A stretch of 64,000 nucleotides of DNA from the NCBI GenBank assembly GCA_027493955.1, contig JAOSJT010000001.1:3960586-4024585 (forward strand), given 5' to 3'. The DNA comes from Bacteroidia bacterium. GTDB taxonomy: Bacteria; Bacteroidota; Ignavibacteria; SZUA-365. Below the pieces are notes generated by a model, which saw only the letters and a list, made by a program, of their open reading frames with translations, was not told the DNA's origin and searched no databases. The translations under genes and the position numbers were made by a program. The stretch's first letter is position 1, and each line of letters starts with the position of its first letter. This document shows, piece by piece, positions 8,171 to 56,218 of the stretch.

Positions 8171-8431
8171 GTTTGAAACAGGAAGTGTGTGCATGATGCA
8201 TTGCGGCGTACATACGAACAGGGCGACGGCGGCGGTCTTACGCAGACTGCGCAAGCCCTCGCATTCATGCACGACGCGCTCCAGGAAGATCCTGCAATTC
8301 AAACACTACTGCACCGACGCCCCTATTTGACCCCAGCTCCTCCCCGCCGTAACGGCTTTCGCTCCGTCCCACGACAATCACGACCTTGTACCACATATTT
8401 CGGGCACGCTGTGCCCTTCAGGAGTATCACT

Positions 8432-9352
8432 GTGAAAGCGACCGACTTCCTCTCCGTCCGCGACATGAATCAGGAGGAGATCCTGGCCACCTTCGACATC
8501 GCCCTCGATATGAAAGCCGACCGCACGAAATATGCCGAAGCCCTCAAGGGTCAGGCGCTGGCGATGATTTTCGAGAAGCCCTCCCTTCGCACCCGCACGA
8601 CCTTCGATATTGGCATTCAGCAGCTCGGCGGATATTCACTCTACCTCTCACCGGCTGAAATCAGCCTCGGAAAACGCGAATCCGTGTACGATGTCGCGAA
8701 AAATCTCGAGCGCATGGTGCAGGGTATCATGATTCGCACCTTCGCGCATCAGATCGTCATTGATATGGCGAAGTTCGCTTCCATCCCCATTATCAACGGA
8801 CTCACCGACTTCTCGCACCCCTGCCAGGCGATGGCGGACTACCTCACCGTCAAGGAAGTGAAGGGCGAGCTGAAAGGCCTCAAGCTGTGCTATGTGGGCG
8901 ACGGCAACAACGTGGCGCACAGTCTCATGTTCGCCGGCGCTATCCTCGGTGTGGACGTCACTGTGGCCTGCCCCGCTGGTTACGAGCCCAACCTCATCGC
9001 CTTCCAGCAAGCCACGGAAGATGCCAAACTTTCGGGCGCGAAAATCGAAGTAGTACACGATCCGGCCGCCGGTGTGAAGAATGCCGATGTTGTGTACACC
9101 GACGTCTGGGCCTCGATGGGGCAGGAAGCCGAAGCCGCCGAGCGCCGCCGCATCTTCATGCCCTTCCAGGTGAACGAAGATCTCATGGCCAAGGCGAAGA
9201 CCGACGCCATCTTCATGCATTGTCTGCCTGCACATCGCGGAGACGAAGTGACAGACGGCGTGATCGACGCTCCGAATTCGGTGGTCTTCCAGGAGGCGGA
9301 AAATCGCCTTCATGCGCAAAAGGCCATCATGTATCAGTTGATGAAAAAGTAA
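8432..9352 (+). CDS. argF: ornithine carbamoyltransferase
   Basis: STRTR (SLRTRTTF), HPCQ and HCLPAHRGDEVT motifs are diagnostic of OTCase. ORF 8189..9352, but the conserved N-terminus starts at an in-frame GTG at 8432, preceded by AGGAG 8 nt upstream. ATG 8468 is an alternative start. Confidence 0.85.
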   Translation: MKATDFLSVRDMNQEEILATFDIALDMKADRTKYAEALKGQALAMIFEKPSLRTRTTFDIGIQQLGGYSLYLSPAEISLGKRESVYDVAKNLERMVQGIMIRTFAHQIVIDMAKFASIPIINGLTDFSHPCQAMADYLTVKEVKGELKGLKLCYVGDGNNVAHSLMFAGAILGVDVTVACPAGYEPNLIAFQQATEDAKLSGAKIEVVHDPAAGVKNADVVYTDVWASMGQEAEAAERRRIFMPFQVNEDLMAKAKTDAIFMHCLPAHRGDEVTDGVIDAPNSVVFQEAENRLHAQKAIMYQLMKK

Positions 9353-9361
9353 GGGCCGGCC

Positions 9362-10303
9362 ATGTCCCGTACAGCGCTCATTGCCATCGGCGGGAACTCG
9401 CTCATCCGCGCGGGTGAGCGCGGCACCATTGACGAGCAGCTCGCCAACGCGCACGCCACGGCGCGTTGTCTTGCCGAAATGGTGCAGCGCGGCTGGCGCA
9501 TCGTTATAACGCACGGCAACGGTCCCCAGGTGGGGGCCGCCCTGCTGCGTTCCGAACGCGCCGCCGGTGAAGTCTACACCCATCCCCTTGACGTCTGCGT
9601 CGCCACCACGCAAAGCGAAATCGGCTACCTGCTCCAGCGCGCGCTGGAGTACGAGCTTCGGCAGCTGGGCCTCACCACACCGGTGCTGACCGTGCTGACG
9701 CAGGTGCGCGTAGACGAACACGATCCCGCTTTCGCCCATCCCACCAAGCCTATCGGACCCTTCTATTCGAAGAAGGAAGCCGAGGACCGGCAGCGGCGTC
9801 TCGGCTGGAATATCGTCGAGGATTCGGCCCGCGGCTATCGCCGCGTCGTGCCCTCGCCCGAACCGAAAGAGGTGTTCGAACAGCACATCATCCGTAAACT
9901 GCTCGACGACGGCATGATTGTCATCGCCTGCGGTGGTGGCGGTATTCCCGTCATCGAGCGGGCGAATCACGAAGTGATCGGCTCCGAGGCCGTGATAGAC
10001 AAGGATCGCGCATCGGCCCTGCTCGCCTCGGAACTGGGTGTGGACCTCTTCATCATCAGCACTGATGCGCGGCAGGTGTTTGTGGACTTCAAGAAACCCA
10101 CGCAGCGGGGTCTCGACACAGCCAACGTATCCGAACTGCGGCAGCTCGCCGGCGAGGGGCAGTTCCCGGCCGGGAGCATGGGACCGAAAGTGGAGTCCGC
10201 CATCCGCTTCATCGAAAGCGGGGGCCGTGAAGTCATCATCACGTCATTTGAATATCTCACCAGCGCGCTCGACGGCAACGACGGCACGCGCATTGTTCCA
10301 TAA
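9362..10303 (+). CDS. arcC: carbamate kinase
   Basis: 313 aa. The IAIGGN N-terminus and overall amino-acid-kinase fold signature match carbamate kinase. Confidence 0.85.
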   Translation: MSRTALIAIGGNSLIRAGERGTIDEQLANAHATARCLAEMVQRGWRIVITHGNGPQVGAALLRSERAAGEVYTHPLDVCVATTQSEIGYLLQRALEYELRQLGLTTPVLTVLTQVRVDEHDPAFAHPTKPIGPFYSKKEAEDRQRRLGWNIVEDSARGYRRVVPSPEPKEVFEQHIIRKLLDDGMIVIACGGGGIPVIERANHEVIGSEAVIDKDRASALLASELGVDLFIISTDARQVFVDFKKPTQRGLDTANVSELRQLAGEGQFPAGSMGPKVESAIRFIESGGREVIITSFEYLTSALDGNDGTRIVP

Positions 10304-10324
10304 CCGGCACAGGAAGGACAGAGC

Positions 10325-11242
10325 ATGAAACTCCGCCATCTCGTCGAATCTCAGCAGTTCACCGTGCCTCTGCTGATGGAGTTGTTCGACCGTACGCGCA
10401 TGATGGAAAAGGTGCTGGCCCGCGGCGGCACCCGCGATTACGCACAGTACATCATGGGGACGCTGTTCTATAAGCCGAGCACGCGTACGCGTTTCTCCTT
10501 CGAAGCCGCCATGCACCGTCTCGGCGGCCGTGTGCTCTCCACCGAGCACGCAATGGAGTTCTCCTCCGAAATCGAAGGAGAAAAAATCGAGGATACCATC
10601 CGAATCATCGGCAATTATTGCGATGTTATCGTGTTGCGCCACCATGAGGAGGGAGGCGCCACACGCGCGGCAAGCGTGTCCACGATTCCCGTCATCAATG
10701 CCGGAGACGGTGCGGGCGGGCAGCACCCCACACAGGCGTTGCTCGATCTCTACACCATTTACAACGAATGCAAAACACTGGACGGTCTGTCCGTCGCGCT
10801 CATCGGTGCCCTCGATCACGGGCGCACCGCCCGCTCGCTCGCGTATCTGCTCGGGAAGTTTGACCGTACGAAGCTGTATTTCATCGCTCCCGAGGAAATG
10901 CAGATCGGCCGGGACATCCTCGACTATCTCGACAAGCACGACGTCGCGTATGAATTGGCCTCCACCACGAAGGGCATACTGAAAAGCATGGATGTCGTTT
11001 ATCAGACACGCATCGACAAAGACCGTCTGCGCAAGCGCGATATCGATTTGTCGCATTACAACATCGACAGTACGGTTCTGCGCGAATTGAAAAAGGACGC
11101 CATCATCATGCATCCCCTGCCGCGCTCGGTGGAAATTGACCATGCGGTGGACGACGATCCGCGCGCGGCGTATTTCCGCCAGACGCGCAACGGTCTCACC
11201 GTTCGCATGGCGCTGCTCACCATGCTTCTCGAACAAGAATAA
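10325..11242 (+). CDS. pyrB: aspartate carbamoyltransferase catalytic subunit
   Basis: 305 aa with STRTRFSFE, HPTQ and HPLPR motifs. These are the ATCase set, not the OTCase set (which has HCLP). Confidence 0.8.
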   Translation: MKLRHLVESQQFTVPLLMELFDRTRMMEKVLARGGTRDYAQYIMGTLFYKPSTRTRFSFEAAMHRLGGRVLSTEHAMEFSSEIEGEKIEDTIRIIGNYCDVIVLRHHEEGGATRAASVSTIPVINAGDGAGGQHPTQALLDLYTIYNECKTLDGLSVALIGALDHGRTARSLAYLLGKFDRTKLYFIAPEEMQIGRDILDYLDKHDVAYELASTTKGILKSMDVVYQTRIDKDRLRKRDIDLSHYNIDSTVLRELKKDAIIMHPLPRSVEIDHAVDDDPRAAYFRQTRNGLTVRMALLTMLLEQE

Positions 11243-19539: not shown

Positions 19540-19657
19540 GCAGCGCGGAGCCGGAAGTTGTATCAGTGTGATGACGCACTCCCAAAATGCGAAGAAATAT
19601 CGTTCTGACAACATATACTCCACCCAGAATGAGAGGGCGATGGAAATTCGCAGGCCG

Positions 19658-19775
19658 GCGCCTGAGCGAGTTTAGGCGGTCCCTGAGCGAGTTTCAGCGG
19701 TCCCTGAGCGAGTTTCAGCGGTCCCTGAGCGCAGTCGAGGGGCAGCCTCCGAGTGAAGGGCGGTTTCTGAGCGTG
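19658..19775. repeat. about 3.5 tandem copies of a 21-bp unit (GTCCCTGAGCGAGTTTCAGCG) plus a related GAAGGGCGGTTTCTGAGCGTG copy
   Basis: Read directly from the sequence. It belongs to a dispersed GGTCCCTGAGCG motif family also present at 26453-26511 and 28874-28918. Confidence 0.8.
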
Positions 19776-20000
19776 TTTCCGGTGCCCGATCGTAGCCGAA
19801 GGCCCGGAGTACGCCAATCTCTCGACAACGGATGCTACGCGCAGCGGATCGTATAGACCAGAGTTAGATATATGACTATGTAATAAACGAAATTTTTCAA
19901 AAAAATCCCATATCTATGGGAGGCGCAGCATGTTTGAATGGAGGTATGTTTCCGTTGTGATCATACATGAACGATGTTTCACGAGTAAAAGGACACTACA

Positions 20001-21512
20001 ATGAACGACAAAACAACAATCCCGAAACGGCTGCGGGCGCTACTGCCGCATAAGCGCTTCCATTGCCTGCGGACCATGCTCGCATTGCTCCTGCTGCTCT
20101 GCGCCACGAAGGCGTACCCGCAGGTGCAATGGACGGAAGTGAAATTGCCAAAATCCCCGAATATGACTTCATTTTCTAGTATGGTGTGGGCAGACTCGCT
20201 CCATGGATATCTCTTCGGGCGTTTCCACGGCGTAATACTAAAAACCTCCGATGGCGGTGCCAGATGGTTGCTTGATTTCCTACCACCAGGACCGGATTCA
20301 CTTATCTATCGTTCCGGGTTCGAATTCAGACACGCCGATTTCAAAGGCAGGGATTTCGGCGTTGTGACATTCAACAAATATGGCGGGCGGGATTCGTTGC
20401 TCTTCTATACAACGGACGGTGGCGCTACCTGGAGTTACCATCTGATCAAGATGAATTCTCCGTTTGAAAACACAATGAATCCTCCCGGTTCTCAATTGCG
20501 TGTTGACGCAAACCGTGCCCTGTTCCTGTATTACACGCGCCAATACGACGACGGTGTGATAGCCAATGTGATAACTCGCAGCGATGACTACGGCGCGACG
20601 TGGCGTGAACTCGGAGGCGACACCGTATCCGGAAGCGGCGACCTCATTAACTATTACGTCATGCTGGACTCGCTGACGCATTACCGCTTCACTACTTTGT
20701 GGGACATCGGTGACTTCAGTCGCTCCGAGGCGCGGGTCACAACCGATGGCAGGCGCAACTGGTCCGGTTTCCCCGAGTTGCATTATCTGTGGTTTATTGA
20801 TAATTCGGAAATTCAGGAAGTCCGGATGATCAATGATACCTCGGTATCGATTAGGCTTAGGGATCCCAACGGAAATGGCGGCCCATGCATTGTCAGCCGG
20901 GATATCCGCAATCACCTCACGCGTGAGGCATGGTATAACTATGGGCATCCGTATACATGGCCGAACGGGTGGAAGCAACCGGTATACGATTTGCTGTATC
21001 ACGACGGTACGTACATCGCCAGAATAACGGATTCCGTCATGGTCTTCCGGGAAAATCCACCGGAGCGCGCACAAAAATTGTACGTACCCGGAGGATATTA
21101 CGGCTCGTTTTACCTGCAACCGGGCGGTCGCGTGTGGCATTTGAATTGGGGAAAGCTCTGGGTCCTGGACTACCGGACCTTGGGCTCTGCTGTTACTCTC
21201 CCCGCGCCATCGCACGACATCGAGGGCTTCGAGTGCTATCCACAACCGTTTTCAAGCAGCTTGGGCGTGCTTACACTGCGCTTGAACAGCAAGCAGCGCC
21301 ATGCAGAGGTTGAACTCGCTGTATACGATTCGAATGGTAGGCGGTTGTATGATAGAGAAATCGGAGACATCGCGCCTGGCATGAGTGATGTGCATGTGGA
21401 TATGTCAGCAGCATCGTTCTCACAGTTACCCTCTAACGCGGTGCTGTTTATCGAATTACGAACTCAAAATCAACGCTTCTACACGAAATCACTGTTTCTC
21501 AAGAACAAGTAG
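20001..21512 (+). CDS. T9SS-secreted protein with BNR / Ycf48-like repeats
   Basis: Signal peptide (probable start ATG 20076, MLALLLLLCATKAYPQ). Repeats of the form S/TxDGGxxW (TSDGGARW, TTDGGATW, SDDYGATW). C-terminal Por sorting domain (ECYPQPFSSSLGVLTLRL...VYDSNGRRLY...). Confidence 0.7.
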   Translation: MNDKTTIPKRLRALLPHKRFHCLRTMLALLLLLCATKAYPQVQWTEVKLPKSPNMTSFSSMVWADSLHGYLFGRFHGVILKTSDGGARWLLDFLPPGPDSLIYRSGFEFRHADFKGRDFGVVTFNKYGGRDSLLFYTTDGGATWSYHLIKMNSPFENTMNPPGSQLRVDANRALFLYYTRQYDDGVIANVITRSDDYGATWRELGGDTVSGSGDLINYYVMLDSLTHYRFTTLWDIGDFSRSEARVTTDGRRNWSGFPELHYLWFIDNSEIQEVRMINDTSVSIRLRDPNGNGGPCIVSRDIRNHLTREAWYNYGHPYTWPNGWKQPVYDLLYHDGTYIARITDSVMVFRENPPERAQKLYVPGGYYGSFYLQPGGRVWHLNWGKLWVLDYRTLGSAVTLPAPSHDIEGFECYPQPFSSSLGVLTLRLNSKQRHAEVELAVYDSNGRRLYDREIGDIAPGMSDVHVDMSAASFSQLPSNAVLFIELRTQNQRFYTKSLFLKNK

Positions 21513-21524
21513 GAAAGGTGTGAC

Positions 21525-24500
21525 ATGAAGAATACGAAGTACCTGTTCACGGCATGTCTCTTCGTCATGATGACTGGAAACGCAATCGCACAGACCCCTG
21601 AGTTAAACGATTACTGGCAGAATTTCGTCTCAAGCGGGGCGAATATTCTCTCAGGCTACACTCCCGATCCTAATTCAGTAAATCTCGGCAGTAATATCGC
21701 AGGGTACCACTTGGGCCGCTTTGGCTTGCATGGTCTCATCTGGGGGCACCTGACCTGGGTGCGCTCGCCGGAGTATGCTGATCCGGCGACAACGGATGGG
21801 CTGCGCAGGTAGTATCTGCGAATTGCTAATGGTAAGATCGATACGATGACGAGCGCTCCGGTCTTCGAGGATATCAGTGGCTGCGGCGCTATCAGCTACA
21901 AAGGACCGACGCATGAGGCGATCACGAGATATCATGACGGGTTCTGGCATGATGGCGACATGATCGGTGGCGGGTATAAGGGCTGGGGCATGAAACGAAG
22001 CATGGATGCCATGGTGGCTCTACCCAGATATATGCCCCGCATACTCAAGGACGAGTGGTATCGCATGAAAATCCGCTGCGAAAACAGTCCGCCGCCGAGT
22101 ATGTTCACAACAATCACCATCTGGCTGGCTCCTGGCGGCTCGCCCTTCCCGAGTACGCCGCATTATATGCAGACGTATCGGGGGCTGGAAAAGGGAACAG
22201 AAGAGAATGCTCCGATATTACCTGTCACAGACGACGGATCGCTGCACATTGACCCTGTCAGCGGACTGCTGCAACCGCAGCGCGTATGGTACAGGAAAGG
22301 TACTGTGGCGATACTGTCCTGCTTTTCCAACATATCCGTGAAGAATCTGGCCGTGTTCAGAGGTACGGGCGGCAGCAGAACGCCGTTCTACAGTTTGCAG
22401 GTGCATGGTGCGGATTACACTGCCGATATCAACGATTTCTATGAACACTGGATTCGTGTCGGCGATGAAGATGTAAACGGCAGCGACCGCGACGTGTGGT
22501 CTGTGACTCTTGACAATGGTGAATACGTGATTCATACCACGGCAGCCAATGGGTATCCGATCGCTATGCCGGGTGCGCTGTATCGGCAGGATAACGAAGG
22601 CGTGTATGCTTCGGCATATCTGAAGTACAAGGACGAAGTTGACTTTACGAGCTTCAATCTGGAGGATTGTGAAATCGAATACGATTTGCGCATCGGCAAG
22701 CGCAACACCGGTTATGCTTAATCGGGCATGGCGTTTCATTTCACGAATCGAACAGGAGATCTCCATACCTACATCGACGGCAGAGAGCCAGACCTCGGCG
22801 TTGAGGGTGGTGTATTTGAAACCCCGGATGAAGTGACGGAAGGCGATGAATCCGTGGCCCTTCATAGCAGTGCCCAGTCCCTTGTGCGTTTTGGTCATTA
22901 CTACCGGCATTTGTACCGCTATCTCGCCGCAAATCTGCGTCCCGACAGAATGGAGGTGACACACCATCGCGAGAGCAAGGAGAAAAAAAATGATGCGGGG
23001 CAATTCGTAGAAAACAGCGGAGAGCTGTTCTATGGCGGCACTCCGTGGGATGCGTCCTTCAGCATTGATCCCGACTCACTCGCCTACTCCGAAGGGCATA
23101 ACTACGAAGGAGAAATGGCGGGAGCGATATTGCGCTTCAGCCGCTATATACTGGATCCGACTACACCGGCGGAGCTGAGTACGCATTTCGCCACGAATGC
23201 GAGCACCTACATCACGGCCATGAACGACAATTTGCTGGCGAAATGGATCAATGCCGCGCAACTGTATACCGGCAGCAGTGACCTGTTTTATGGCGCCAGT
23301 CAGAGCAACTGCTTGCTCGGCATCGGCAATCTCAACGACGGTCATATTTGGCGATACACGAAATCCCGTACAGGGAGTATGTTCCTGCATGCTCGCGGCT
23401 TATCCGGCATCACTCCAGCGTACTCTAATTTCTCCGATGCGTATTGCGATTACTATCACACGAAAATTGCCGATGCCTTCGTTCCCCAACAATACGATGG
23501 CAGAGACACCTGGCAATGGTATGACGGCGCCGGGTGGTGGGAAACGTATGACAACGGGATTATGGATGCAGCTCACTATGCGGGCGAGGTACGGCATGTG
23601 TTCATGGCGGACGAGTATGGCTTCCCCGAAATGGGCGACATCGGGTCGAAGATAGCAGACAATTTCGTGAATGCTATGTGGAACAGAGTTCTCCCCAATC
23701 CTCCGGAGAACCTGGTTGATCTGTACGAGTTCCGCCATCCCAATGAAAAGCACAAACTTTCTGACAAAGGAAACAGTTACGGACTCACGGACTACCCGTT
23801 GCTCGCAAAATACAATTTTACGGTGTGGGAAATTCTTAATGATTTCTACGCCCGTAAACCTATGCACCTGCGGAATTACGCACCAGCCTCCGCACAGATG
23901 GCCTATGCCGTGCGCTACGGTACGCCGCGCAATCTTCGCGCCGAGCCGCTCACCGTGTAGTCCTGCAATGATGGCCTCGTCTCGAACCTGCTTATCCGCT
24001 GGGATCCACCGTCGGATTATCCCTGTGGCTATCTTGATGGTCCATCGGGCGGCATCCGCCATGCGGGCACGCGCCTGCGCTGGTATCACATCGATCGCAA
24101 ACTCGCAAGCGATGCGGACTGGTCCGCCGCCGTGCGCTGGAGCATAGACATACCCACATTCCAGCAAGCCCACAAGTATCCCTTCCTGCTTGATCCCACT
24201 GCCGAGGTGGGGCAGAGTTATCAGTATCGTGTATGTACGCAAGACGCCTCAACGGGCATCACGAATCTTTCGGAATACTCCCCAACCCTCGACGTCACCT
24301 ATCCCGCCTATGCCGGTTACTATGACAGCAGAAATGACTTGCTCGAAATCGACCTCTTCCCCTGGCCGACGATACTGAGCGGCGAAACGCGCACGCTCGC
24401 CAAAGGCATTTACTATGCGCCGTTCAACATCCTGGTGGAAGAGGGCGGCACGCTCGTGCTCGATCCCGCCGTGCAGATCATTTTCGGCGATTTGTGCGAG

Positions 24501-26285
24501 CTGGAAGTGAAGGGCTCGTTCGTCGTCAACGGCAATCCGGACTGCGAGAGGGTAACGCTCACCGGTGTGGCCCCTCAATCGGGAGGCGGCGCCTCGGGCA
24601 GTTGGTGGGGTGTGTCGCTCTTTCCCTCCGCGACGCATGACATCGATTACGCCATCATCGAGAACGGAATCAACAATCTGGTGCTCTTCGATCCGGGCGG
24701 CGTTGTGAGCAACACCGCATTGCGCTACGCCTCACAACATGGCGTCATCATCAAAAACGCCGACGATTCCGGTCCCGCCGCACAATTGCTCGAGCAATGC
24801 GACATTCACGAAAACGGCTGGACCAATGTGTTTATGACACACGGAAGTCTCGATGCGGGAGGCCAACCGATACCGATCTACCCCATCATCCGCAACTCCA
24901 CCATCCGCCAGGCGCTCACCGGCGATGGTATACTTGTGGCCGATCAGGCATTTCCTCTCATTGAATACTGCGACATACACTCGAACGCGACGAATGGCAT
25001 TCGCTGCGAGCAAGTGCGCGGAGACGTTTTCGCCAACTCGAACGTCACTCTGTTGCACAGCAACATACACGATCACGAAAGCGGAGCGGGCGTATTCCTC
25101 CGAGGCAGCAATGGCCTGTTGCGCTTCAACGAGCTGTATGGAAATCTGCATGGCGTGTCGGCCAACGATGCGTCCATACTTCATGGTGCGCTGTCCTACG
25201 GCTCTGTCGGCGGTAATTCGCTGCATGACAATGATATTCACCTGCGAATAGAGAATTGTACCGGTATCTACATTGGGTTCCACTTCAGTTTGCTCGGCGA
25301 CAGTCGTGGCCACGGCAATACCTTTGTCGCGCCGGGCAGTTACCACATACAATCGGTAAATTCGGCGGGCTTCGCGCAGTGCAACAGTTACAATCCGTAC
25401 GACCCCTACGCCAATCCACCGCATTTCGACATCCCCGGTTTCCCGATGACGCCGGACATTGAAGTGTTGCCGCTCGGACCATGCGTCCCTCCCGGAGGTG
25501 GTACGCAAACGATATTGCCTAAAACCGTTGCATCCAACGAGCGTGCATTCACGCTCGGCACTTTGCCGATGTTGTTCGAAAAACACGACGATGCCTCGGT
25601 TCTGAAACTCCTGCAGACGTACGAGCTCGATCCGATATGCCGGCATGGCATACTCAGTTGGCTGGGCACCTACGCCGCGAGCGGCTCGCACAAGGATCGC
25701 TACCTCGCCATACTCGACTCACTGTCGCAATCCTGGCAGGGCGGCATGTTGGCGCAGGTACGCCATGCCGGAGTATCCGCCTTCGTCTCGCGCGGCGGCA
25801 TGCAGATGTCGCCGGGTTACGCTTCCTCAATATCCGACTCGGCATTGCACTCCTACATCACACTGAAAGCCGCAGTGACAAATTCGAAGGAGCTTTCTCC
25901 GATGGAGGTTCTCCAGGCGCAGATCCGGAACAACGATACCGTCAACAAAACGATGTCGCCGCTAACACCCGCAGCGGGAAACGGCGTCCCGGTCCCCAGA
26001 ATTTCCGTCAATGCCGGGCCGCCTCAGCCGGAGTATTCCGGACTGCTCGCATACCCCAATCCGGCGAGCGGTATGCTCAATCTCCGGGTGACAGATGCTC
26101 GTCGTTATGAGCAATGCAGGGTCACAGACTTGCTCGGACGAGTCGTCATGAAGGTAGATTTGCGTACGGTTACGGTTGAGGAAGGTTTGTACCGACTCGA
26201 CCTCTCCACGCTCCCCCGCAACCGCTATCTCGTCACGTTGTTCGGCGAAGATGGCACGGCGTGTAAAACGGTGGTGTTGCGCTGA
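21525..26285 (+). pseudogene. composite T9SS-secreted parallel beta-helix protein (about 1587 codons) interrupted by three in-frame stops: TAG 21810-21812, TAA 22719-22721, TAG 23958-23960
   Basis: ORFs 21525..21812, 21846..22721, 22728..23960 and 24132..26285 share one frame, and the gaps translate without further stops (the 23961-24131 gap reads ...SNLLIRWDPPSDYP...RWSID..., Fn3-like). Only the first piece has a signal peptide (MKNTKYLFTACLFVMMTGNAIAQ). Only the last has a T9SS CTD (AYPNPASGMLNLRV...). The middle contains pectate-lyase-like beta-helix repeats. Confidence 0.5.
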
Positions 26286-26343
26286 GGTCTTGCGCAAGGC
26301 ATTCCGATTCGAAGTTAATAGCTGGCCTTTCGGTCATAACAGC

Positions 26344-26384
26344 AAAACAGGAGAGCGTCCGGCTCTCCTGTTTTGCGTTTTGCG
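26344..26384 (+). terminator. rho-independent terminator after the composite cargo gene
   Basis: CAGGAGAGC-GTCCG-GCTCTCCTG followed by TTTTGCGTTTTGCG. Confidence 0.65.
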
Positions 26385-26452
26385 AAATTAGAGTTGAATT
26401 CCTGTAAAGTTCTGACGCTTTGTTTGCATGAAAATAAGCACGTGAATTATAA

Positions 26453-26511
26453 CGATGGTCCCTGAGCGAGGTCTCGGCTGCGCTCGACCATCGTCGAAGG
26501 GACGCTCAGCT
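26453..26511. repeat. REP-like imperfect hairpin carrying the GGTCCCTGAGCG motif
   Basis: CGATGGTC-CCTGAGCG...CGCTC-GACCATCG inverted repeat, followed by the GAAGGGACGCTCAG reverse copy of the motif. Confidence 0.6.
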
Positions 26512-26543
26512 ACTGACGAATGGCAATCACAGTCGGAGGGGAA

Positions 26544-27749
26544 CTATCGGACGACTGTGAACGGGTAGGTGGAGAGTGTGTTGTTGATACTGATGCACGC
26601 GATGTAATACCCGACCGGGAAGGTCGACACGAGAACACTACGCGTCAGAACAGCATCGTAATACTGAAGTTCCTCCGCATGAAATATTCGTCCGGTCAGA
26701 TCTCTGATAGATAATTGGATGTGCGCGGGCTTTGTATACGTAATCTCGACATTGACGAAGTCTTTTGGCGAGCTTGGGTAGACCGATAGCGATTGAAGTT
26801 GCTTTGGGTTCTCAACCAGGTTCGGTGTACAGCACGGAGAATTAATCTTGTTGTATCTGTTGTTGCCGGTAAATTCGTTCGGACAATAGAGCTTCCTGAG
26901 CGCACAGATATTGCGACAAGAAAGTTTGGTGGCTTGCGGGATATTTGCCTTCAGAATGTTTCTATACATTGGGTCGCTTTTCGAGTCTGGATACGTTGTG
27001 CTATTCTCACAAGGATTCCCAATTGCGTCGGGATTATCGTTTGGGTCACTTGTTTCGCCCACGCCATATCCATTAATGTGGCCGAGCCCTAAGCAGTGAA
27101 GGATTTCATGCAGCAGGACTGATTTGATCGAAACGCACGGTTTACCTCATATTGAGGGATTGTTGCATTCCGGTTGCCAGCACCACTCATTATTTCGCTT
27201 TCGATCTTGTGACAAATTCAACCACACGGAGGGGACGTCAGTAGAGGGATTTCTCCCCTCCATTTGTCCCGGAACCTCTCTCCCATCAATACCAGGCTTA
27301 TCAAAAGCTTGGGCAAATGTGGTGCCAAAAATTTCAATCGGCTCCGCTCCGTTCAGATTTTCGCAACTTTTTGAAATCGTGAGTCCTCCTGTTGTCGGGC
27401 ACACGCAATCATGAAGTTCATTTGTAATATCCTGCAGCGCCGAATTCACAGTCGCCTTGAAGTCGAAATTTAAACAAGTGATTCCTTTAATGGTTTCAGG
27501 GAGAAACTGCCACTCTCTGACACAAATGTTTCTGGCGACATGTTGGTAGGGTAGCACAAGCGGACCGGCGACAGGGGTTGTGCGGCCACACCAGAAAACA
27601 TTATCAGAATACTCAAGGTCTTCTACCTTCTCTTTCCCTCGGACGTAGTATGAATGAATCCAGGTTGGATCGCAGCCCGTTTGCGCGTACGTAACACTGA
27701 CGGGAGTAACGAGCAGAATGACGAGAATGATGATTCGTTTTGTAGTCAT
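26544..27749 (-). pseudogene. T9SS-secreted metzincin-type zinc metalloprotease interrupted by one in-frame TGA (27147-27149, minus strand)
   Basis: ORFs 27147..27782 (signal peptide MTTKRIIILVILLVTPVSVTYAQ) and 26544..27062 (T9SS CTD) are in the same frame. The 84-nt gap translates without stops as GKPCVSIKSVLLHEILHCLGLGHINGYG, which contains the HExxHxxGxxH metzincin zinc site. Confidence 0.5.
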
Positions 27750-27759
27750 GGCTGTAATC

Positions 27760-28698
27760 CTATTGGAGTCTGAGCATACCATTTCGCAACGTGCTGATGC
27801 AGTCCTCCAGATTTATCTGCGCACCACTGCGGAGAAGGAGATCGTTATCGAAGACCACATTTCCTACCACTGGCAATGCTCCCCTGACTCTTAAGTGATA
27901 GGAGGTATAGCTTGTTTGCGTACTCACGACGAATAAATCGAGAAAAACAATATATTGCTTCCCGACCTCCATCTTGCCTGGACCGGATTCGTAATACGTA
28001 AAACCCTTCGGGGCATAGTATCTGAATATACTGTCCGGCGGGCAGACCCAAGAAACGGGGATGCAGTTGCCGCTGCCTTCACCGATCGGATTTCCACAGA
28101 AATCGCTGTTCTGCAATCCACCAAAAATAGAAGTGATTATGGATATATCAGCGCAGTAGATTTCATTGAGATGCGGCGAACCAAAATATCTGGTCGTTGA
28201 GTCAATATGAACGCTTCTCGATTCAACGTTCACAAGATACACACCGCCGATATTGAAGTCTCTGAGCGTATCATAAAGATTTCTGGGAGATACGCGGTCG
28301 TAAAATGCATTTTGCAGGCTGCCGCCCAGATCCATATACGTCGATTTGTAGGCTGCGGGTTGTCGCCAATTTGACTCGTTTTCAGTGTGACGGAAGCGCA
28401 AATAATCGTAGTCCAGAGCTCGCAGCAGGGCTCTCATGCCGAGCGCGATGGAATCTTCACTGAGACTGTTGGCGAAGCTGTACAGCTCCTCCGGTGAATA
28501 AAGCTTACAGAGCGTATCCGCAACGATATACGTCGCGACAATGTCGAGCGGCATTTGGATCGAGTAACTTGGCCAGTTCGTAATTACCGCCGCATTCAGT
28601 ATCTCGCAGGTGCTGTCGCTTTTCATAAACAGCGGCTGGGAGTGCGAAGCTTGGGATATGCCGGCGGCAAGCAACACGAGTAAAACAGTGATACGCAT
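27760..28698 (-). CDS. secreted hypothetical protein
   Basis: ORF 27760..28743 with signal peptide from MRITVLLVLLAAGISQA. No recognisable domain. Confidence 0.45.
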   Translation of the reverse strand: MRITVLLVLLAAGISQASHSQPLFMKSDSTCEILNAAVITNWPSYSIQMPLDIVATYIVADTLCKLYSPEELYSFANSLSEDSIALGMRALLRALDYDYLRFRHTENESNWRQPAAYKSTYMDLGGSLQNAFYDRVSPRNLYDTLRDFNIGGVYLVNVESRSVHIDSTTRYFGSPHLNEIYCADISIITSIFGGLQNSDFCGNPIGEGSGNCIPVSWVCPPDSIFRYYAPKGFTYYESGPGKMEVGKQYIVFLDLFVVSTQTSYTSYHLRVRGALPVVGNVVFDNDLLLRSGAQINLEDCISTLRNGMLRLQ

Positions 28699-28873
28699 AT
28701 GATTATCCTTATAAAAGTACGGTGCAAAATACTCGCAGGGCATACAAAAGTCAAGCCAACTACCATATTGGGGTCGCAGGCAGGTCGGAATGGTTGCATG
28801 TGGGCTGTGTGAGTAGAAATGGGATCAGTATCAACCGCAAACGAGAATGCAATGAACGCCAAGAAAGCATGGT

Positions 28874-28918
28874 CGAAGGGCGGTCCCTGAGCGTGGCTTC
28901 GACGGTCCCCGAGTCAGG
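28874..28918. repeat. third copy of the GAAGGGCGGTCCCTGAGCGTG dispersed motif, partly duplicated (GACGGTCCCCGAGTCAGG)
   Basis: Matches the 19755-19775 copy at 19 of 21 positions. Confidence 0.7.
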
Positions 28919-29004
28919 TGACCATTCCGCCGGGCGGAAGTCGGTGACTATCGAATGTGACATCGAATTGGGATGAAAAATCTATCAAATATAGTCACTC
29001 TGTG

Positions 29005-29068
29005 CTTCGGCCGAGGCCCACCCCCATCATGTAGAGACGTTGCATGCAACGTCTCTACATGGCCGAAG
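29005..29068. promoter_or_regulatory. perfect 28-bp palindrome (GTAGAGACGTTGCATGCAACGTCTCTAC) nested in an outer CTTCGGCC/GGCCGAAG inverted repeat, about 165 bp upstream of a cargo gene start
   Basis: Read directly from the sequence. Candidate operator or 5' UTR hairpin. Confidence 0.6.
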
Positions 29069-29230
29069 GGGCCGTGCATTCCCTTTGCTGAAGAGACAAC
29101 AAAAGCTATCGGCATGCATAATAACCTTGATTCCTGGTCGGATGCTGTGTACTTTGCCGTTTCGCTGGTCGTCGCCGGGCAAATAGTCATTCGTCATCCC
29201 GCATTCGTGCCACAAACCGAGGATATCGAC

Positions 29231-30883
29231 ATGAACTTTCGTAGTACCTTGTTGCTTCTCCTTCTCGTCCTCGTTTCATCCGGTCTGATCGCGCAACCTT
29301 CACTGCCCAAGACCCCGAAGGAAGATATGTCCGGCCGCATTTCTCCTGGCAATCTCACCATGTGGTTTTCCAACAACGGCATCCTGTCCTTCGATCCGAT
29401 GCGTGTTGCTGCGGGACTGGAGTGGCCAACAGGTTCGGGGAAGTTCCTGGCCTTTTCCGAGGGATTACTCTTCGGTTGCCGGAATCCGGAGCCGTCGGTG
29501 GGCGGAGCCAATTACATTTCCGGCTTGCAACCTGGCAACATCCTCGCAGACGGACAGGCAAGCGATCCCGCCGATCCGGCGCACCGCATCTACATGGTTC
29601 GCAGAATGGACCGGACGTCCTTCGAAAACCTGAGTAGAGTCGAACAGTCGCGGTACATTTTGGACTTTCAGGAATGGCCGGTGCATCTGGGCGCTCCGTG
29701 GATTGACGGAAACAGAGACGGCATGTACGAAGCGGATTTTGACGCCTGGCTCGAAGGCACACCCGGCCAGGATTGCCCGAAATTTCCGGGAACGGAAGCG
29801 GCGTGGTTCGTCATGAACGATCTCGACAGCGCGCGCACGACGAAGCTGCACGGCTCCGATCCCGTGGGCGTCGAAATCCGCATGCTGATCTGGGGTTCGG
29901 ATGAAGCCGGCGTCCCGGCAAATACACTCGTGCGCGACATCAAAATCATCAACCGGAGCGGGGCCACGCTGAATGACGTCTACCTGTCCTGGTGGGTGGA
30001 TCCAGAAGTCGGCGACCCCTTGGACGATTTCGTCGGAGTCGACACCATCCGCAATATGGCCTACGCGTACAACAGCAGGGATCACGACAACGAATACGGC
30101 GTTGCACCGGCTATCGGCTGGAGATTGCTGCAGGGTCCGGTAGTCCGCGATCCAAACTCGGTGGCGCTGTATGATTACGGCTGGAAGCAAGGCTACCGCA
30201 ATCTGCCGCTGAGCAGCTTCGTGCATTATATAAACACCGACGCGGTGTACCGCGACCCGGAACTGAGCGATGAAAGCGGCGCTACACAGTGCTACAACAA
30301 CATGCAGGGGCTGACGTGGAACGGCGCGCCGTTCGTCAATCCTGTGAGTAACAAAACGAGCGTATTTACCCTCAATGGCAATCCCCTGACGGGCAGCGGC
30401 TGGGTGGACGGCATCGTGAATCCACCCGACGACAGGCGCATGATGATGAGCACCGGTCCGATATCTCTCGCCGACGGGGAAGAGCAGCAAATCATTATCG
30501 GATCGGTGGCCGCGCTGGACACCTCCGCGAAAGCGAGTGTCTATAAATTACTCGTCAACAGTGATGAATTCCTGAATTTTTTACTGCGCCATGTGACGTC
30601 GGCGTCGGCACCGGCAGCGATCCCACACTTTGCCATTTCGGACGTGTTTCCCCAGCCCGCAGCGGACAGGATAACAGTGCGCTTCGATGTGGACAGTCCG
30701 CAGCACATCACGCTTGACGTGTACGACATGCTGGGCCGGCGACTGCGGCGCCATCTCGATCTGTCCACTGCCGCAGGCAGCCACAGCAGCACAATCACAA
30801 CGAGCGGCTGGGCTCCGGGCATGTATATACTCCGAATGCAAGGTGCACAGGGGAGTGTGAGCAGGCGCTTTGTCGTACGATAA
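29231..30883 (+). CDS. T9SS-secreted hypothetical protein
   Basis: ORF 28973..30883. Signal peptide from ATG 29231 (MNFRSTLLLLLLVLVSSGLIAQ). C-terminal Por sorting domain (ISDVFPQPAADRITVRFDV...GMYILRMQG...). Confidence 0.65.
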   Translation: MNFRSTLLLLLLVLVSSGLIAQPSLPKTPKEDMSGRISPGNLTMWFSNNGILSFDPMRVAAGLEWPTGSGKFLAFSEGLLFGCRNPEPSVGGANYISGLQPGNILADGQASDPADPAHRIYMVRRMDRTSFENLSRVEQSRYILDFQEWPVHLGAPWIDGNRDGMYEADFDAWLEGTPGQDCPKFPGTEAAWFVMNDLDSARTTKLHGSDPVGVEIRMLIWGSDEAGVPANTLVRDIKIINRSGATLNDVYLSWWVDPEVGDPLDDFVGVDTIRNMAYAYNSRDHDNEYGVAPAIGWRLLQGPVVRDPNSVALYDYGWKQGYRNLPLSSFVHYINTDAVYRDPELSDESGATQCYNNMQGLTWNGAPFVNPVSNKTSVFTLNGNPLTGSGWVDGIVNPPDDRRMMMSTGPISLADGEEQQIIIGSVAALDTSAKASVYKLLVNSDEFLNFLLRHVTSASAPAAIPHFAISDVFPQPAADRITVRFDVDSPQHITLDVYDMLGRRLRRHLDLSTAAGSHSSTITTSGWAPGMYILRMQGAQGSVSRRFVVR

Positions 30884-31074
30884 AGCGATTTGTAAAGGCC
30901 AGCGCCTCATGCTGGACGTTCGCCACGACGTCCCGCTTTGCTAGTGTTACTGTGATGGAAGCGCCCCTCCACCGTAGACGCCGATACCGCTCTACGCCTC
31001 GTTGAGTGCACAGACCGGCAGAAAACGCAGAACAGGAGATCGGACCCGCCAGGCGTGTCATCCCTCTGTTCTTT

Positions 31075-31132
31075 CTGTTTTTTCTGCGGTCCACCCCTCT
31101 CTTTTCTGCGCCTTCTGTTTTTTCTGCGTTCC
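31075..31132. repeat. two 18-bp CT-rich direct repeats (CTGTTTTTTCTGCGGTCC / CTGTTTTTTCTGCGTTCC) 40 bp apart, upstream of flotillin
   Basis: Read directly from the sequence. Confidence 0.6.
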
Positions 31133-31307
31133 CGTGTTCTGTGGTCCCGCATTTGTTCGTCTGACAAAGAACCGGTACGTTTGTATGTAATGGCGAGTAC
31201 TTCGCCTGATTCTCCCTATCCCAAGATACAGGGCGTTTCTTCGCTCCGGCATCCATTGCCCGAAAACAAAGTCGATACGCAATATCCACGTTTCTCTGGA
31301 GGCTTTC

Positions 31308-32693
31308 ATGGCTACCTGGCTCATCGTCATCGTCGTTCTCGTTCTTGTCGCCGGCTTCATCTTCTGGATGACGCGGCAGTACAGGAAGGCCGGTCCCAAC
31401 GAGGTGCTGGTCATCTCCGGCCGGCGCAGCGTCATTACGACGCCCGACGGCGCAAAGCAGGAAATTGGCTATAAATTCCGCATCGGTGGCGGTTCCTTCG
31501 TCAATCCTTTCAGCGAGCAAGCGGATACGCTGCCCATCGAGGTTGTCAGCGTCAACATCCGCACCCCGGAAGTGCTGTCCAAGGACGGCATCCCCATACT
31601 TTCCGAATCTTCCGCACAGGTCAAAATCGATTCCAACGAGTACTCGATTTTCCTCGCAACGCAAAACTTCATGGGTGGCGGCACCGACGCGGTGCGCGAA
31701 GTGGCCCAGACGGTGCTCGAAGGCAAGGTGCGCGAAAGCATCGGCAGCATGACGGTGGAGGAGCTGTATCAGAATCGCCAGGAATTCGCCAACCGCGTGT
31801 ACAACGCCGTGGTGCGTGATCTCGGCAGCATGGGTCTCGTCATGATTTCTTTCGCGCTGAAGGACGTCACCGATACGCAGGGCTATCTCGAAGCGCTCAG
31901 CAAGCCGCGCATCGCGGCCGCCAAGCGCGACGCCATCGTCAAGCAGGCCGAGTACGACCGCGACGCGGAAATTTTTGCCGCGCAGGCGAAAAAGGAAGCC
32001 GATATCGCCAAGCTTGTCGCCGCCGCCGAAGTGGCCGGCCGCAACTGGCGTAACGAAGAACTCAAGGCAAAATCCCAAATCGAAGTCAGTAAAGTGCGCG
32101 CCGCCGCCGATACTTCCTACGAGCTCGAACGCCACAAACTTGCGCAGGAAGTGAAGCGCGAGGAATACAAGGTCAAGTTCATCGAGACCGAAGAGCAAGC
32201 CAAGGTGCAGACCGAGGAAATCAAGCGCAAAGAAAAGGAACTCGAAGCCAACGTCATCAAGCCGGCCGAAGCCCGCAAAGTGCAGATTCAGACCGAAGCC
32301 GAGGCCGAAAGCTTCCGCGCCCTCCGTGAAGCGGAAACGAAAGCCACTGTCCGCGCGCGCGAAAATGAACTCGACGCGGAGCGCATCAAAATGCTCGGCA
32401 AGTCCGAAGCCGACGCCATGACCGAAAAAGCCAAGGCCTACGGCGAGTACAATCAGACCGCACACTATCAGATGATTCTGGACATCCTGCCCGAGCTCAC
32501 GAAAAATATCGCCGAGCCGCTCTCGCGTATCGACAAGATCACGATGATCAGCGGCGCCGACGGCAAGCTCGGCACCTCGCAGATCACCGGCCAGGTGGCG
32601 GACATTCTCGCCAACGTGCCCGAGGTCGTCAAGTCCCTCACGGGCGTCGATCTCGCGAAATACCTCAGGGAAAAACTCGGCGGCGATGCGTAA
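31308..32693 (+). CDS. flotillin-like SPFH/band-7 protein (YqiK-type)
   Basis: 461 aa with an N-terminal TM helix, an SPFH domain, then a long EA-rich coiled-coil (flotillin repeats). Confidence 0.85.
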   Translation: MATWLIVIVVLVLVAGFIFWMTRQYRKAGPNEVLVISGRRSVITTPDGAKQEIGYKFRIGGGSFVNPFSEQADTLPIEVVSVNIRTPEVLSKDGIPILSESSAQVKIDSNEYSIFLATQNFMGGGTDAVREVAQTVLEGKVRESIGSMTVEELYQNRQEFANRVYNAVVRDLGSMGLVMISFALKDVTDTQGYLEALSKPRIAAAKRDAIVKQAEYDRDAEIFAAQAKKEADIAKLVAAAEVAGRNWRNEELKAKSQIEVSKVRAAADTSYELERHKLAQEVKREEYKVKFIETEEQAKVQTEEIKRKEKELEANVIKPAEARKVQIQTEAEAESFRALREAETKATVRARENELDAERIKMLGKSEADAMTEKAKAYGEYNQTAHYQMILDILPELTKNIAEPLSRIDKITMISGADGKLGTSQITGQVADILANVPEVVKSLTGVDLAKYLREKLGGDA

Positions 32694-32797
32694 TGCATGG
32701 CAACCGGACTCCCATGTCTCAACGAAACCGCCGCAAGAACCACGCACGCAGCGCGGTGGCCGCGGCATTCAAGTCATAGACAGCATGAGGTAGCACA

Positions 32798-35149: not shown

Positions 35150-35153
35150 GACA

Positions 35154-56013: not shown

Positions 56014-56218
56014 TCGTGATGTACGACGTACGATTTATGGTGGAGGGTGAAGGGTAAAGGGTGAAGAGCCCGAAGTGCGAAGCTTCCTCTACCCCCAGCT
56101 TCAGCTGGGAGGCACGAGCACACACCACTGGGTACATACAGGCGGACGACAATTACACTATTCCACAACGTCAGTGGGGGGGGGGCGCCCATTTCTCCTG
56201 CCGGCAAGGTCGTTCTCT

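What the first reader, a model, noticed from the sequence alone, without database searches (positions are those of the whole stretch)
20001..27782. Pattern: neighbouring secreted-protein genes carry four nonsense codons (TAG, TAA, TAG, TGA) and zero frameshifts; five consecutive plus-strand ORFs share one frame
Ordinary pseudogene decay mixes indels and substitutions. Here two adjacent loci are broken only by point nonsense codons of all three types. The intact upstream gene (20001..21512) is in the same frame as the composite gene, separated by 12 stop-free nt. The housekeeping genes in the window (argF, arcC, sdhAB, flotillin, the PckA-like gene) terminate normally with TAA, TGA or TAG, so this is not a recoded genetic code. 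The pattern suggests recent relaxed selection on surface proteins, a suppressor-dependent expression strategy, or a consistent sequencing or assembly artefact class.
Basis: inference. Interest (0 to 1): 0.55.

Follow-up and report, generated by a model that had tools for sequence, protein, structure and literature searches.

The report
Recently broken secreted-protein genes
Two neighbouring genes for secreted proteins in a wastewater-type Bacteroidota genome were knocked out by four real point mutations to stop codons; this is ordinary gene decay, with the twist that every sampled close relative has broken the larger gene at a different place.

Summary
A 1,586-codon gene (21525..26285, +) carries in-frame TAG, TAA and TAG. 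The convergent 401-codon gene (27749..26544, -) carries an in-frame TGA. Neither has a frameshift.

Homologues span every stop, and close relatives read CAG, GAA, CAG and GGA at those codons. Short-read assemblies from at least 11 sequencing runs reproduce all four stops, so they are not an assembly artefact.

Nothing supports suppression or recoding. All three stop types are involved, and all three also end intact genes (18 TGA, 14 TAA, 7 TAG). The stops sit at different positions in different lineages, and the base after each stop is T, T, T and G.

The "five ORFs in one frame" pattern is trivial. Four ORFs are pieces of one gene. The fifth is a separate upstream gene behind a conserved 12-nt spacer.

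New here: both genes lie in a strain-variable island of type IX secretion (T9SS) cargo cassettes bounded by GGTCCCTGAGCG repeats. The large gene is independently disrupted in all five close lineages (6 nonsense, 2 frameshifts, 1 deletion) and absent from two others. Yet dN/dS between alleles is only 0.12-0.19.

Verdict: recent nonsense pseudogenes in a gene-flux island. Whether the losses are neutral or selected is unresolved.

The parts
19656..19733 (+). Left boundary of the island. About 3.5 tandem 21-nt units containing GGTCCCTGAGCG. The Logan short-read contigs break here (at 19702).
20001..21512 (+). Gene A. Intact 503-aa secreted protein with a BNR/Ycf48-like propeller and a weak T9SS tail. 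Its natural TAG terminator is conserved in relatives. It is not part of the broken gene.
   Evidence: intact orthologues in L007, L008 and L010
21513..21524 (+). 12-nt A-B spacer GAAAGGTGTGAC. Its length, a multiple of three, is why A and B share a frame. It is conserved as GAAAGGTGTGAA in three other lineages.
21525..26285 (+). Gene B, a pseudogene of 1,586 codons. It has an N-terminal signal peptide, a family-specific N-terminal region, a right-handed beta-helix and a T9SS C-terminal sorting domain. Three nonsense codons split it into ORFs of 95, 291, 410 and 717 aa.
21810..21812 (+). Nonsense codon 1, TAG. Relatives have CAG (Gln) in L007 and L005, and CGG in L008. The change is C>T.
22719..22721 (+). 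Nonsense codon 2, TAA. All three near alleles have GAA (Glu), and both distant homologues have Glu. The change is G>T.
23958..23960 (+). Nonsense codon 3, TAG. Relatives have CAG (Gln) in L007 and L008, and CGG in L005. The change is C>T.
26342..26376 (.). Perfect 15-bp hairpin (5-nt loop) between the convergent genes B and C. Probably a shared terminator (inference).
   Evidence: (I9)
26457..26487 (+). Boundary repeat (GGTCCCTGAGCG...) between cassette A-B and cassette C-D. The relative L006, which lacks A-B, joins its flank exactly here.
26544..27749 (-). Gene C, a pseudogene of 401 codons. It has a signal peptide, the zinc-protease motif HEILHCLGLGH and a weak T9SS tail. One nonsense codon splits it.
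27147..27149 (-). Nonsense codon 4, TGA, 14 codons upstream of the HExxH motif. The 97.8%-identical relative L006 has GGA (Gly). The change is G>T on the coding strand.
27760..28698 (-). Gene D. Intact 312-aa protein with a signal peptide and no known domain. It travels with C as a cassette.
28875..28912 (+). Right boundary repeat of cassette C-D (GGTCCCTGAGCG...).
29028..29061 (.). Perfect 34-nt palindrome. The Logan contig L001 ends here (at 29040).
   Evidence: (I4)

Best explanation
B and C are genuine, recently formed pseudogenes of type IX secretion (T9SS) cargo proteins. Each was disrupted by ordinary G/C-to-A/T point mutations (CAG>TAG, GAA>TAA, CAG>TAG, GGA>TGA).

Termination at the first stop separates the N-terminal signal peptide from the C-terminal sorting domain. 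No fragment can then be exported and anchored, so both genes are functionally null. This step is inferred.

The genes sit in a strain-variable island between the conserved M48-peptidase and flotillin genes. In that island, cargo-gene cassettes bounded by GGTCCCTGAGCG hairpin repeats are gained, exchanged, broken and deleted. Gene B is a dispensable or costly accessory gene in this clade. It was held under purifying selection for most of its history and is now broken independently in every close lineage sampled.

The absence of frameshifts in this strain fits a short decay time, a sequence poor in homopolymer runs, and the usual GC-to-AT mutation bias, which favours AT-rich stop codons.
For: Shown:
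- Homologues span all the stops, and near alleles have sense codons there.
- Short-read contigs from other runs are identical to the window. One contig is seen in 9 samples, plus two further runs, one of which differs by a single SNP.
- B carries a beta-helix and a Por_Secre_tail domain above Pfam threshold. C carries the zinc-protease motif and a weak tail.
- B is disrupted in all five close lineages at different sites: the window has 3 nonsense; L007 has TAC>TAA; L008 has a +1 frameshift and CAG>TAA; L005 has a G5>G6 frameshift; L010 has TGG>TGA and a deletion fusing B to a neighbouring gene.
- A-B is absent from L006, and tblastn found no A or B match in L011. C-D and the next gene are absent from L007.
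- dN/dS between B alleles is 0.12-0.19 with dS 0.35-0.67. The window lineage shows no excess of nonsynonymous change (26 N: 51 S, similar to the other lineages). The stops are therefore young.
- C differs from the intact L006 copy by only 8 synonymous changes, 5 nonsynonymous changes and 1 stop.
- All eight base changes that created stops are G/C>A/T.
- About 3-3.7% of random point mutations in B create a stop.
- B has 1.26 homopolymer runs of 5 nt or more per kb, against 2.39 per kb in the window.
- The other roughly 40 genes in the window are intact.
- The four more distant homologues (55% identity or less) are uninterrupted over the region visible.
Against: - Three stops in one gene is slightly more than expected. 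From the excess of nonsynonymous changes I estimate about 6-22 neutral substitutions since inactivation. That predicts only 0.2-0.7 further stops, where 2 are seen (my arithmetic; p about 0.02-0.16).
- Seven nonsense against two frameshifts over all lineages is unusual if frameshifts normally dominate, as in the Mycobacterium tuberculosis complex. It gives p about 3e-4 at that ratio and 0.09 at 1:1.
- Five of five alleles broken while dN/dS is about 0.15 is not what simple neutral decay of a single gene predicts. It needs either repeated import from an unsampled reservoir of intact copies or selection for loss.
- Gene A, in the same cassette, is intact in 4 of 4 lineages. That is only weakly informative. 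About 2.3 hits would be expected from its size, so p is about 0.1.
- No expression or read-level data were available.
Confidence: 0.8

Rival explanations
1. Recurrent selected knock-out. Losing B (and C) is advantageous in the short term, for example to escape a phage or predator that uses the surface protein, or to save the cost of a secreted 'public good' enzyme. Loss-of-function alleles then sweep repeatedly. Only lineages or recombinants with intact copies persist in the long term, which keeps dN/dS low. This refines the best explanation rather than contradicting it.
For: - All five close alleles are broken by independent mutations, and two further lineages lack the gene, yet dN/dS is 0.12-0.19.
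- The alleles are mosaic. dS is 0.24-0.39 in the C-terminal half against 0.43-0.97 in the N-terminal half and 0.7-1.2 in flanking core genes. This indicates recombination that could rebuild intact copies.
- The clone carrying all four stops is present in at least 11 sequencing runs, so it is not obviously unfit.
Against: - Second and third stops in an already dead gene bring no further benefit.
- No selective agent has been identified.
- No intact near allele exists in 5.8 billion protein clusters.
- Only five lineages were sampled, and two of the disruptions are single-base indels in short-read assemblies.
Confidence: 0.25
2. Consensus chimera. The population holds several haplotypes that each carry one stop, and assembly merged them into a sequence with three stops that no single cell carries.
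For: - The source is a metagenome-assembled genome.
- Three hits in one gene is slightly more than neutral decay predicts.
Against: - The same combination of stops appears in every independent assembly that covers the gene.
- The protein clusters hold no variant that lacks only one of the stops.
- For each stop to win a majority consensus it must exceed 50% frequency, so at least some molecules carry two or more.
Confidence: 0.08
3. Functional readthrough or suppression. The stops are decoded by a suppressor tRNA or by near-cognate readthrough, so full-length proteins are still made at a reduced, regulated level.
For: - In-frame stops with low dN/dS are reported as widespread in bacteria and read as possible readthrough (PMC7918605).
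- Low-level readthrough of UAG as Gln has been shown in Salmonella pseudogenes (PMC9122581).
- Two of the stops here are TAG derived from CAG.
Against: - Three different stop codons would all need decoding, while TGA, TAA and TAG end 18, 14 and 7 intact genes.
- The stops are at non-orthologous positions in each lineage, and some alleles carry frameshifts or a deletion instead.
- The base after the stop is T, T, T and G. In Salmonella readthrough, C was favoured and U was rare.
- Three stops in series multiply the inefficiency (inference).
- The window has no suppressor tRNA and no Rfam recoding element.
- The low dN/dS here reflects the history before the stops arose.
Confidence: 0.04
4. Sequencing or assembly artefact.
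For: The genome is a single 5.24-Mb contig, which suggests a long-read assembly. One related JGI contig (L011) is riddled with frameshifts.
Against: - Long-read errors are mainly indels, and this locus has none.
- Logan contigs from other runs are 100% identical over 9.3 kb.
- The flanking codons are identical to those of the relatives, and only the single mutated base differs.
Confidence: 0.02

Closest known systems
Classical bacterial pseudogenes formed by nonsense mutation, especially decay of recently acquired or accessory genes (gene-flux model; recalled from Liu 2004, Lerat & Ochman 2005 and Kuo & Ochman 2010, not checked here)
   Same: - Premature stops derive from sense codons.
- The events are lineage-specific and young.
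- They lie in a variable, recombining island.
- The same gene is deleted outright in sister lineages.
   Different: - One gene carries three nonsense hits and no indel.
- Every sampled close allele is broken, although long-term dN/dS is about 0.15.
In-frame stop codons as short-lived population polymorphisms (Belinky et al. 2021, PMC7918605)
   Same: - The stops sit at different positions within one protein family.
- They are young.
- The surrounding gene has dN/dS well below 1.
   Different: That paper reads such cases as possible readthrough or reversion. Here the variety of stop types, the co-occurring frameshifts and deletion, and the separation of the signal peptide from the sorting domain all argue for plain loss of function.
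Independent parallel pseudogenisation of one gene in related strains, for example the arginine decarboxylase genes of Chlamydia trachomatis serovars (PMC2720952; title and abstract seen only)
   Same: Different inactivating mutations hit the same gene in sister lineages.
   Different: This is a free-living, environmental Bacteroidota lineage rather than a host-restricted pathogen. The gene's function is unknown.
Contingency loci with simple-sequence-repeat phase variation
   Same: A surface or secreted protein gene is found in the 'off' state in many strains. One allele (L005) is shifted in a G5/G6 run.
   Different: There is no repeat tract at any of the nonsense sites, and point nonsense mutations are not a programmed switch.

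Membership tests
Nonsense-mutation pseudogene | An in-frame premature stop inside a reading frame that intact homologues span | tested here: met
   P0001 and P0002 span the three stops in B. P0017 spans the stop in C.
Nonsense-mutation pseudogene | The stop is derived from a sense codon by a point change | tested here: met
   CAG>TAG, GAA>TAA, CAG>TAG and GGA>TGA, with identical flanking codons.
Nonsense-mutation pseudogene | Selection is relaxed after the stop (dN/dS rising towards 1 on that branch) | tested here: inconclusive
   The window-specific changes (26 N: 51 S) resemble those of other lineages. There are too few post-stop substitutions to tell.
Nonsense-mutation pseudogene | No functional protein product | not testable with these tools
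   Inferred only. The fragments have either the signal peptide or the T9SS sorting domain, never both.
Programmed stop-codon recoding (selenocysteine, pyrrolysine, suppressor tRNA or variant genetic code) | The stop is conserved at the same position in orthologues | tested here: not met
   Every lineage has its stops at different codons, and relatives have sense codons there.
Programmed stop-codon recoding (selenocysteine, pyrrolysine, suppressor tRNA or variant genetic code) | A single reassigned stop type that is avoided as a terminator | tested here: not met
   All three stop types occur internally, and 39 intact genes end in TGA (18), TAA (14) or TAG (7).
Programmed stop-codon recoding (selenocysteine, pyrrolysine, suppressor tRNA or variant genetic code) | A recoding RNA element or a suppressor tRNA gene | tested here: inconclusive
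   None in the 64-kb window, which has only tRNA-Pro(GGG) and no other Rfam match. The rest of the 5.24-Mb genome could not be scanned.
T9SS cargo protein | A C-terminal Por_Secre_tail sorting domain | tested here: met
   B scores 28.7 bits on PF18962 against a cut-off of 27. C is below the cut-off at 17-18 bits, so for C the result is inconclusive.
T9SS cargo protein | An N-terminal Sec signal peptide | tested here: inconclusive
   Read by eye only: MKNTKYLFTACLFVMMTGNAIAQ in B and MTTKRIIILVILLVTPVSVTYAQ in C. No predictor was run.
T9SS cargo protein | T9SS machinery encoded in the genome | not testable with these tools
   Only indirect support. At least three further genes in the window carry Por_Secre_tail domains above threshold.
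Metzincin zinc protease (gene C) | The HExxHxxGxxH zinc-binding motif and family profile | tested here: inconclusive
   The motif HEILHCLGLGH is present. The Peptidase_M10 match is below threshold (E = 0.036, 14.4 bits). No homologues were found.
Simple-sequence-repeat contingency locus | A repeat tract at the switching site | tested here: not met
   There is no repeat at any nonsense codon. The A8 run at 22983-22990 is in frame. Only the L005 frameshift lies in a short G run.

The most novel reading that the evidence does not exclude
Gene B is a target of recurrent, possibly adaptive knock-out across a whole clade. Every sampled close allele carries its own disabling mutation, yet the gene evolves under purifying selection and its alleles are recombinant mosaics. 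This would fit a population-level on/off cycle. Point nonsense alleles spread under short-term pressure from phage, predators or the cost of a secreted enzyme. Intact copies are then regenerated by recombination between differently broken alleles, or by reversion.
Probability: 0.2. Interest if true: 0.5.

Novelty: new member of a known kind. Interest (0 to 1): 0.25.

Why it matters
It matters in three modest ways.

1. Annotation. GenBank lists four "hypothetical proteins" (M5R41_15250 to 15265) that are pieces of one dead gene. A further entry (M5R41_15270) is half of a dead protease gene.

2. A caution about method. A low dN/dS in a gene with in-frame stops does not show that the stops are read through. 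Here it reflects the gene's history before the stops arose.

3. A tractable natural case. A rare secreted-protein family has been knocked out independently in every sampled member of a clade. It lies in a repeat-bounded cassette island and appears in public time-series and bioreactor metagenomes. Whether surface-protein loss is neutral or selected in environmental bacteria could be tested directly on it.

Tried and rejected
- Genome and metagenome scans for more alleles. The genome scan found only the 39%-identical Zodletone copy, and the metagenome scan found nothing useful.
- A protein search with the composite query (stops written as X). It returned only two distant homologues and not even the gene's own fragments. 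Exact-sequence cluster look-ups were what uncovered the near alleles.
- A homologue search for the protease-like gene C found nothing.
- The AlphaFold model of the 410-aa middle fragment had mean pLDDT 43.6. I did not use it for a fold search.
- A profile search of B against solved structures gave nothing significant.
- The promoter and terminator scan of the island was at chance level.
- Rfam gave only the tRNA.
- A literature search for the run accessions and the locus-tag prefix found nothing.
- The contig L011 was discarded as evidence on breakage of gene C. Every gene compared on it is frameshifted, which suggests an error-prone assembly.
- I first suspected a mobile or invertible element because all Logan contigs start at 19702. 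The breaks are explained by the 21-nt tandem repeat and the 34-nt palindrome.
- Rejected: A plus B as one gene with a fifth nonsense codon. A has its own tail, B has its own signal peptide, and A's TAG and the 12-nt spacer are conserved.
- Rejected: selenocysteine, or code 25 (TGA read as Gly), for the TGA. TGA is the commonest terminator in the window.
Full report
**1. What is in the sequence**

In one + strand frame, ORFs run 20001..21512, 21525..21812, 21846..22721, 22728..23960 and 24132..26285. Translating straight through gives a 503-aa protein (A) ending in TAG at 21510. Twelve nucleotides follow, and then a 1,586-codon frame (B). B is interrupted only by TAG at 21810, TAA at 22719 and TAG at 23958, and it ends at TGA 26283.

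On the minus strand, a 401-codon frame (C, 27749..26544) is interrupted only by TGA at 27149-27147.

**2. Are the stops inside genes?**

Yes.
- B begins with a signal-peptide-like sequence. It contains a right-handed beta-helix (PF13229) and ends in a T9SS sorting domain (PF18962, above threshold).
- Two distant homologues, P0001 (1385 aa, 39% identity) and P0002 (1548 aa, 32%), align across all three stops.
- C has a signal peptide and the zinc-protease motif HEILHCLGLGH 14 codons after the TGA. It also has a weak sorting domain and a sub-threshold matrixin match.
- Exact-sequence cluster look-ups identified the source as an NCBI metagenome-assembled "Bacteroidia bacterium" on a single 5,237,942-bp contig. 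There the fragments are annotated as separate hypothetical proteins, M5R41_15250 to 15270.
- The same look-ups revealed near alleles from other samples. At the four stop positions these alleles read CAG or CGG, GAA, CAG or CGG, and GGA. The flanking codons are identical.

**3. Not an artefact**

Logan short-read assemblies of other runs give contigs identical to window 19702..29040. One contig is seen in 9 samples. Two further runs also match, one of them with a single SNP. All include every stop.

These contigs all start at 19702 and L001 ends at 29040. A 21-nt tandem repeat and a perfect 34-nt palindrome explain the breaks.

**4. The shared frame is not meaningful**

Four of the five ORFs are fragments of B. 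A is a separate gene with its own weak sorting tail. Its TAG and the 12-nt spacer GAAAGGTGTGA(C/A) are conserved in four lineages.

In the window, 7 of 29 same-strand neighbouring gene pairs share a frame. Five of those are separated by a single stop. One run is three intact genes at 8177..11242 with carbamoyltransferase, amino-acid-kinase and carbamoyltransferase domains. All other genes in the window look intact and ordinary.

**5. No support for recoding**

- TGA, TAA and TAG terminate 18, 14 and 7 intact genes in the window.
- The window has only tRNA-Pro and no Rfam recoding element.
- The base after each internal stop is T, T, T and G. In Salmonella pseudogenes, where low-level readthrough was demonstrated, C was favoured at that position and U was rare (PMC9122581).
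- The stops are not at orthologous positions in relatives (see section 6).

**6. What the relatives show**

The locus lies between a conserved M48 peptidase gene and a flotillin (Band_7) gene, and its content varies between lineages.
- L006 lacks A-B altogether. The junction is exactly at window 26457. It carries C-D, with C intact (401 aa), plus an ISL3 transposase and a GIY-YIG gene.
- L007 has A-B but lacks C, D and the next cargo gene.
- L010 has a tandem duplicate of A, a fragment of a second B, and a deletion fusing B (about codon 704) to the cargo gene that lies at 28973..30883 in the window.

The 12-mer GGTCCCTGAGCG occurs five times in the 64 kb, against 0.43 expected. All five copies lie at the three cassette boundaries: 19678/19699/19720, 26457 and 28882. 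It also forms arrays at or near cassette junctions in L005, L006, L008, L010 and L011.

B is disrupted in all five close lineages, each time differently.
- Window: three nonsense codons.
- L007: TAC>TAA.
- L008: a +1 insertion and CAG>TAA.
- L005: a G5>G6 frameshift.
- L010: TGG>TGA and the deletion described above.

The tally is 6 nonsense, 2 frameshifts and 1 deletion. All eight base changes that made stops, including the one in C, are G/C>A/T.

More distant homologues are uninterrupted over what is visible. These are L012 at 51% identity over codons 339-1576, plus P0001, P0002 and P0030. An exhaustive HMMER search found only five 50%-identity clusters in 1.84 billion proteins, so the family is rare.

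**7. Timing and selection**

Nei-Gojobori estimates give dN/dS of 0.12-0.19 between B alleles, with dS 0.35-0.67. Flanking core genes give 0.03-0.06 with dS 0.7-1.2. A gives 0.29. B was therefore constrained for nearly all of its divergence. Its lower dS and mosaic pattern (C-terminal half 0.24-0.39) indicate exchange between lineages.

Changes unique to the window lineage (26 nonsynonymous, 51 synonymous) resemble those of the other lineages, so the stops are young. C differs from the intact L006 copy by 8 synonymous changes, 5 nonsynonymous changes and 1 stop. The C-D cassette is 97.8% identical between genomes whose adjacent conserved flank (window 31057-34407) is about 91% identical, which points to recent transfer.

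**8. Is nonsense-only more than chance?**

About 3.0-3.7% of random point mutations in B create a stop. From the nonsynonymous excess I estimate about 6-22 neutral substitutions since inactivation. That predicts 0.2-0.7 additional stops where 2 are seen, a mild and non-significant excess (my arithmetic).

Four nonsense against zero frameshifts gives p = 0.06 at a 1:1 baseline. It gives about 0.001 at the 16:66 ratio reported for Mycobacterium tuberculosis complex pseudogenes. Seven against two over all lineages gives 0.09 and about 3e-4 respectively (my arithmetic). That baseline is from another organism.

B has only 1.26 homopolymer runs of 5 nt or more per kb, against 2.39 in the window. GC-to-AT bias also favours stop codons. 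I treat the skew as suggestive only.

**9. Interpretation**

The best-supported account is ordinary, recent nonsense pseudogenisation of two T9SS cargo genes in a gene-flux island. The first stop separates the signal peptide from the sorting domain, so the products cannot be exported (inferred).

What is not ordinary is that every close allele of B is broken while long-term constraint is evident. Two explanations remain open:
- repeated import from an unsampled reservoir of intact copies, followed by decay;
- recurrent selected loss, with intact copies rebuilt by recombination.

The data cannot separate these. The nearest literature is the description of in-frame stops as short-lived polymorphisms with low dN/dS (PMC7918605). 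The present case shows that such a pattern arises without readthrough.

**10. Limits**

- I had no read-level data and no access to the rest of the genome, so there is no genome-wide pseudogene count or tRNA scan.
- There are no expression data.
- Only five close lineages were sampled, and two of their lesions are single-base indels in automated short-read assemblies.
- The function of B's N-terminal 800 residues is unknown. There was no Pfam, NCBIfam or PDB match, and the AlphaFold model was unusable.

Noticed in passing
window 19678-19731, 26457-26468, 28882-28893; also L005, L006, L008, L010, L011: The 12-mer GGTCCCTGAGCG occurs 5 times in the 64 kb (0.43 expected), and only at the boundaries of the two gene cassettes. 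In relatives it forms tandem arrays of 21-40-nt hairpin units at or near cassette junctions. It looks like a REP-like element that may mediate cassette gain and loss.
   Followed up: partly
window 19700-30900 compared with L006, L007, L010: The interval between the M48 peptidase and flotillin genes is a hypervariable island of T9SS cargo genes. A-B is missing in L006, which has an ISL3 transposase and a GIY-YIG gene instead. C-D and the next gene are missing in L007. L010 has a deletion-fusion and a duplicated A.
   Followed up: partly
window 19804-19844 vs 21768-21808: A 41-nt relic upstream of gene A is 76% identical to the stretch of B just before the first stop. L007 (5624-5998) and L010 (894-1165) have longer fragments of a second B copy at the same place. 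This implies an old tandem duplication of the cassette.
   Followed up: partly
window 26457-28913 vs L006 8837-11293: The C-D cassette is 97.8% identical between two genomes whose adjacent conserved flank is about 91% identical and whose adjacent cargo gene is 79% identical. This suggests recent horizontal exchange of the cassette.
   Followed up: partly
window 29028-29061: A perfect 34-nt palindrome (CATGTAGAGACGTTGCA / TGCAACGTCTCTACATG) lies just upstream of the cargo gene at 28973..30883. Short-read contigs end inside it.
   Followed up: no
window 32789-35149 and 35139-37013: A 786-aa protein has a class I/II aminotransferase domain only in its first 392 residues, with about 390 residues unassigned. 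It is followed, with an 11-nt overlap, by a 624-aa protein that matches only part of the PEPCK_ATP profile (residues 163-347). Both are conserved and intact in L007.
   Followed up: no
window 56176-56185: A G10 homopolymer lies in the short intergenic gap between the 2,016-aa Ig-repeat cargo gene (which ends at 55957) and the tetrapyrrole-methylase gene (56219-56974, -). It could be a slipped-strand switch.
   Followed up: no
window 43365-44056: A MazE/MazF (PemK-like) toxin-antitoxin pair lies directly upstream of an asparagine-synthase-like gene. MazF shares that gene's frame.
   Followed up: no
L011 (JGI 3300076802): Every gene compared on this contig (C, D and the PEPCK-like gene) is split over two or three frames. 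This points to an error-prone assembly, so I did not use it as evidence on breakage of gene C.
   Followed up: yes
gene B family (P0001, P0002, P0028, P0029, P0030): The N-terminal region of B defines a very rare family. An exhaustive search found only five 50%-identity clusters among 1.84 billion representatives. It has no Pfam, NCBIfam or PDB match.
   Followed up: partly
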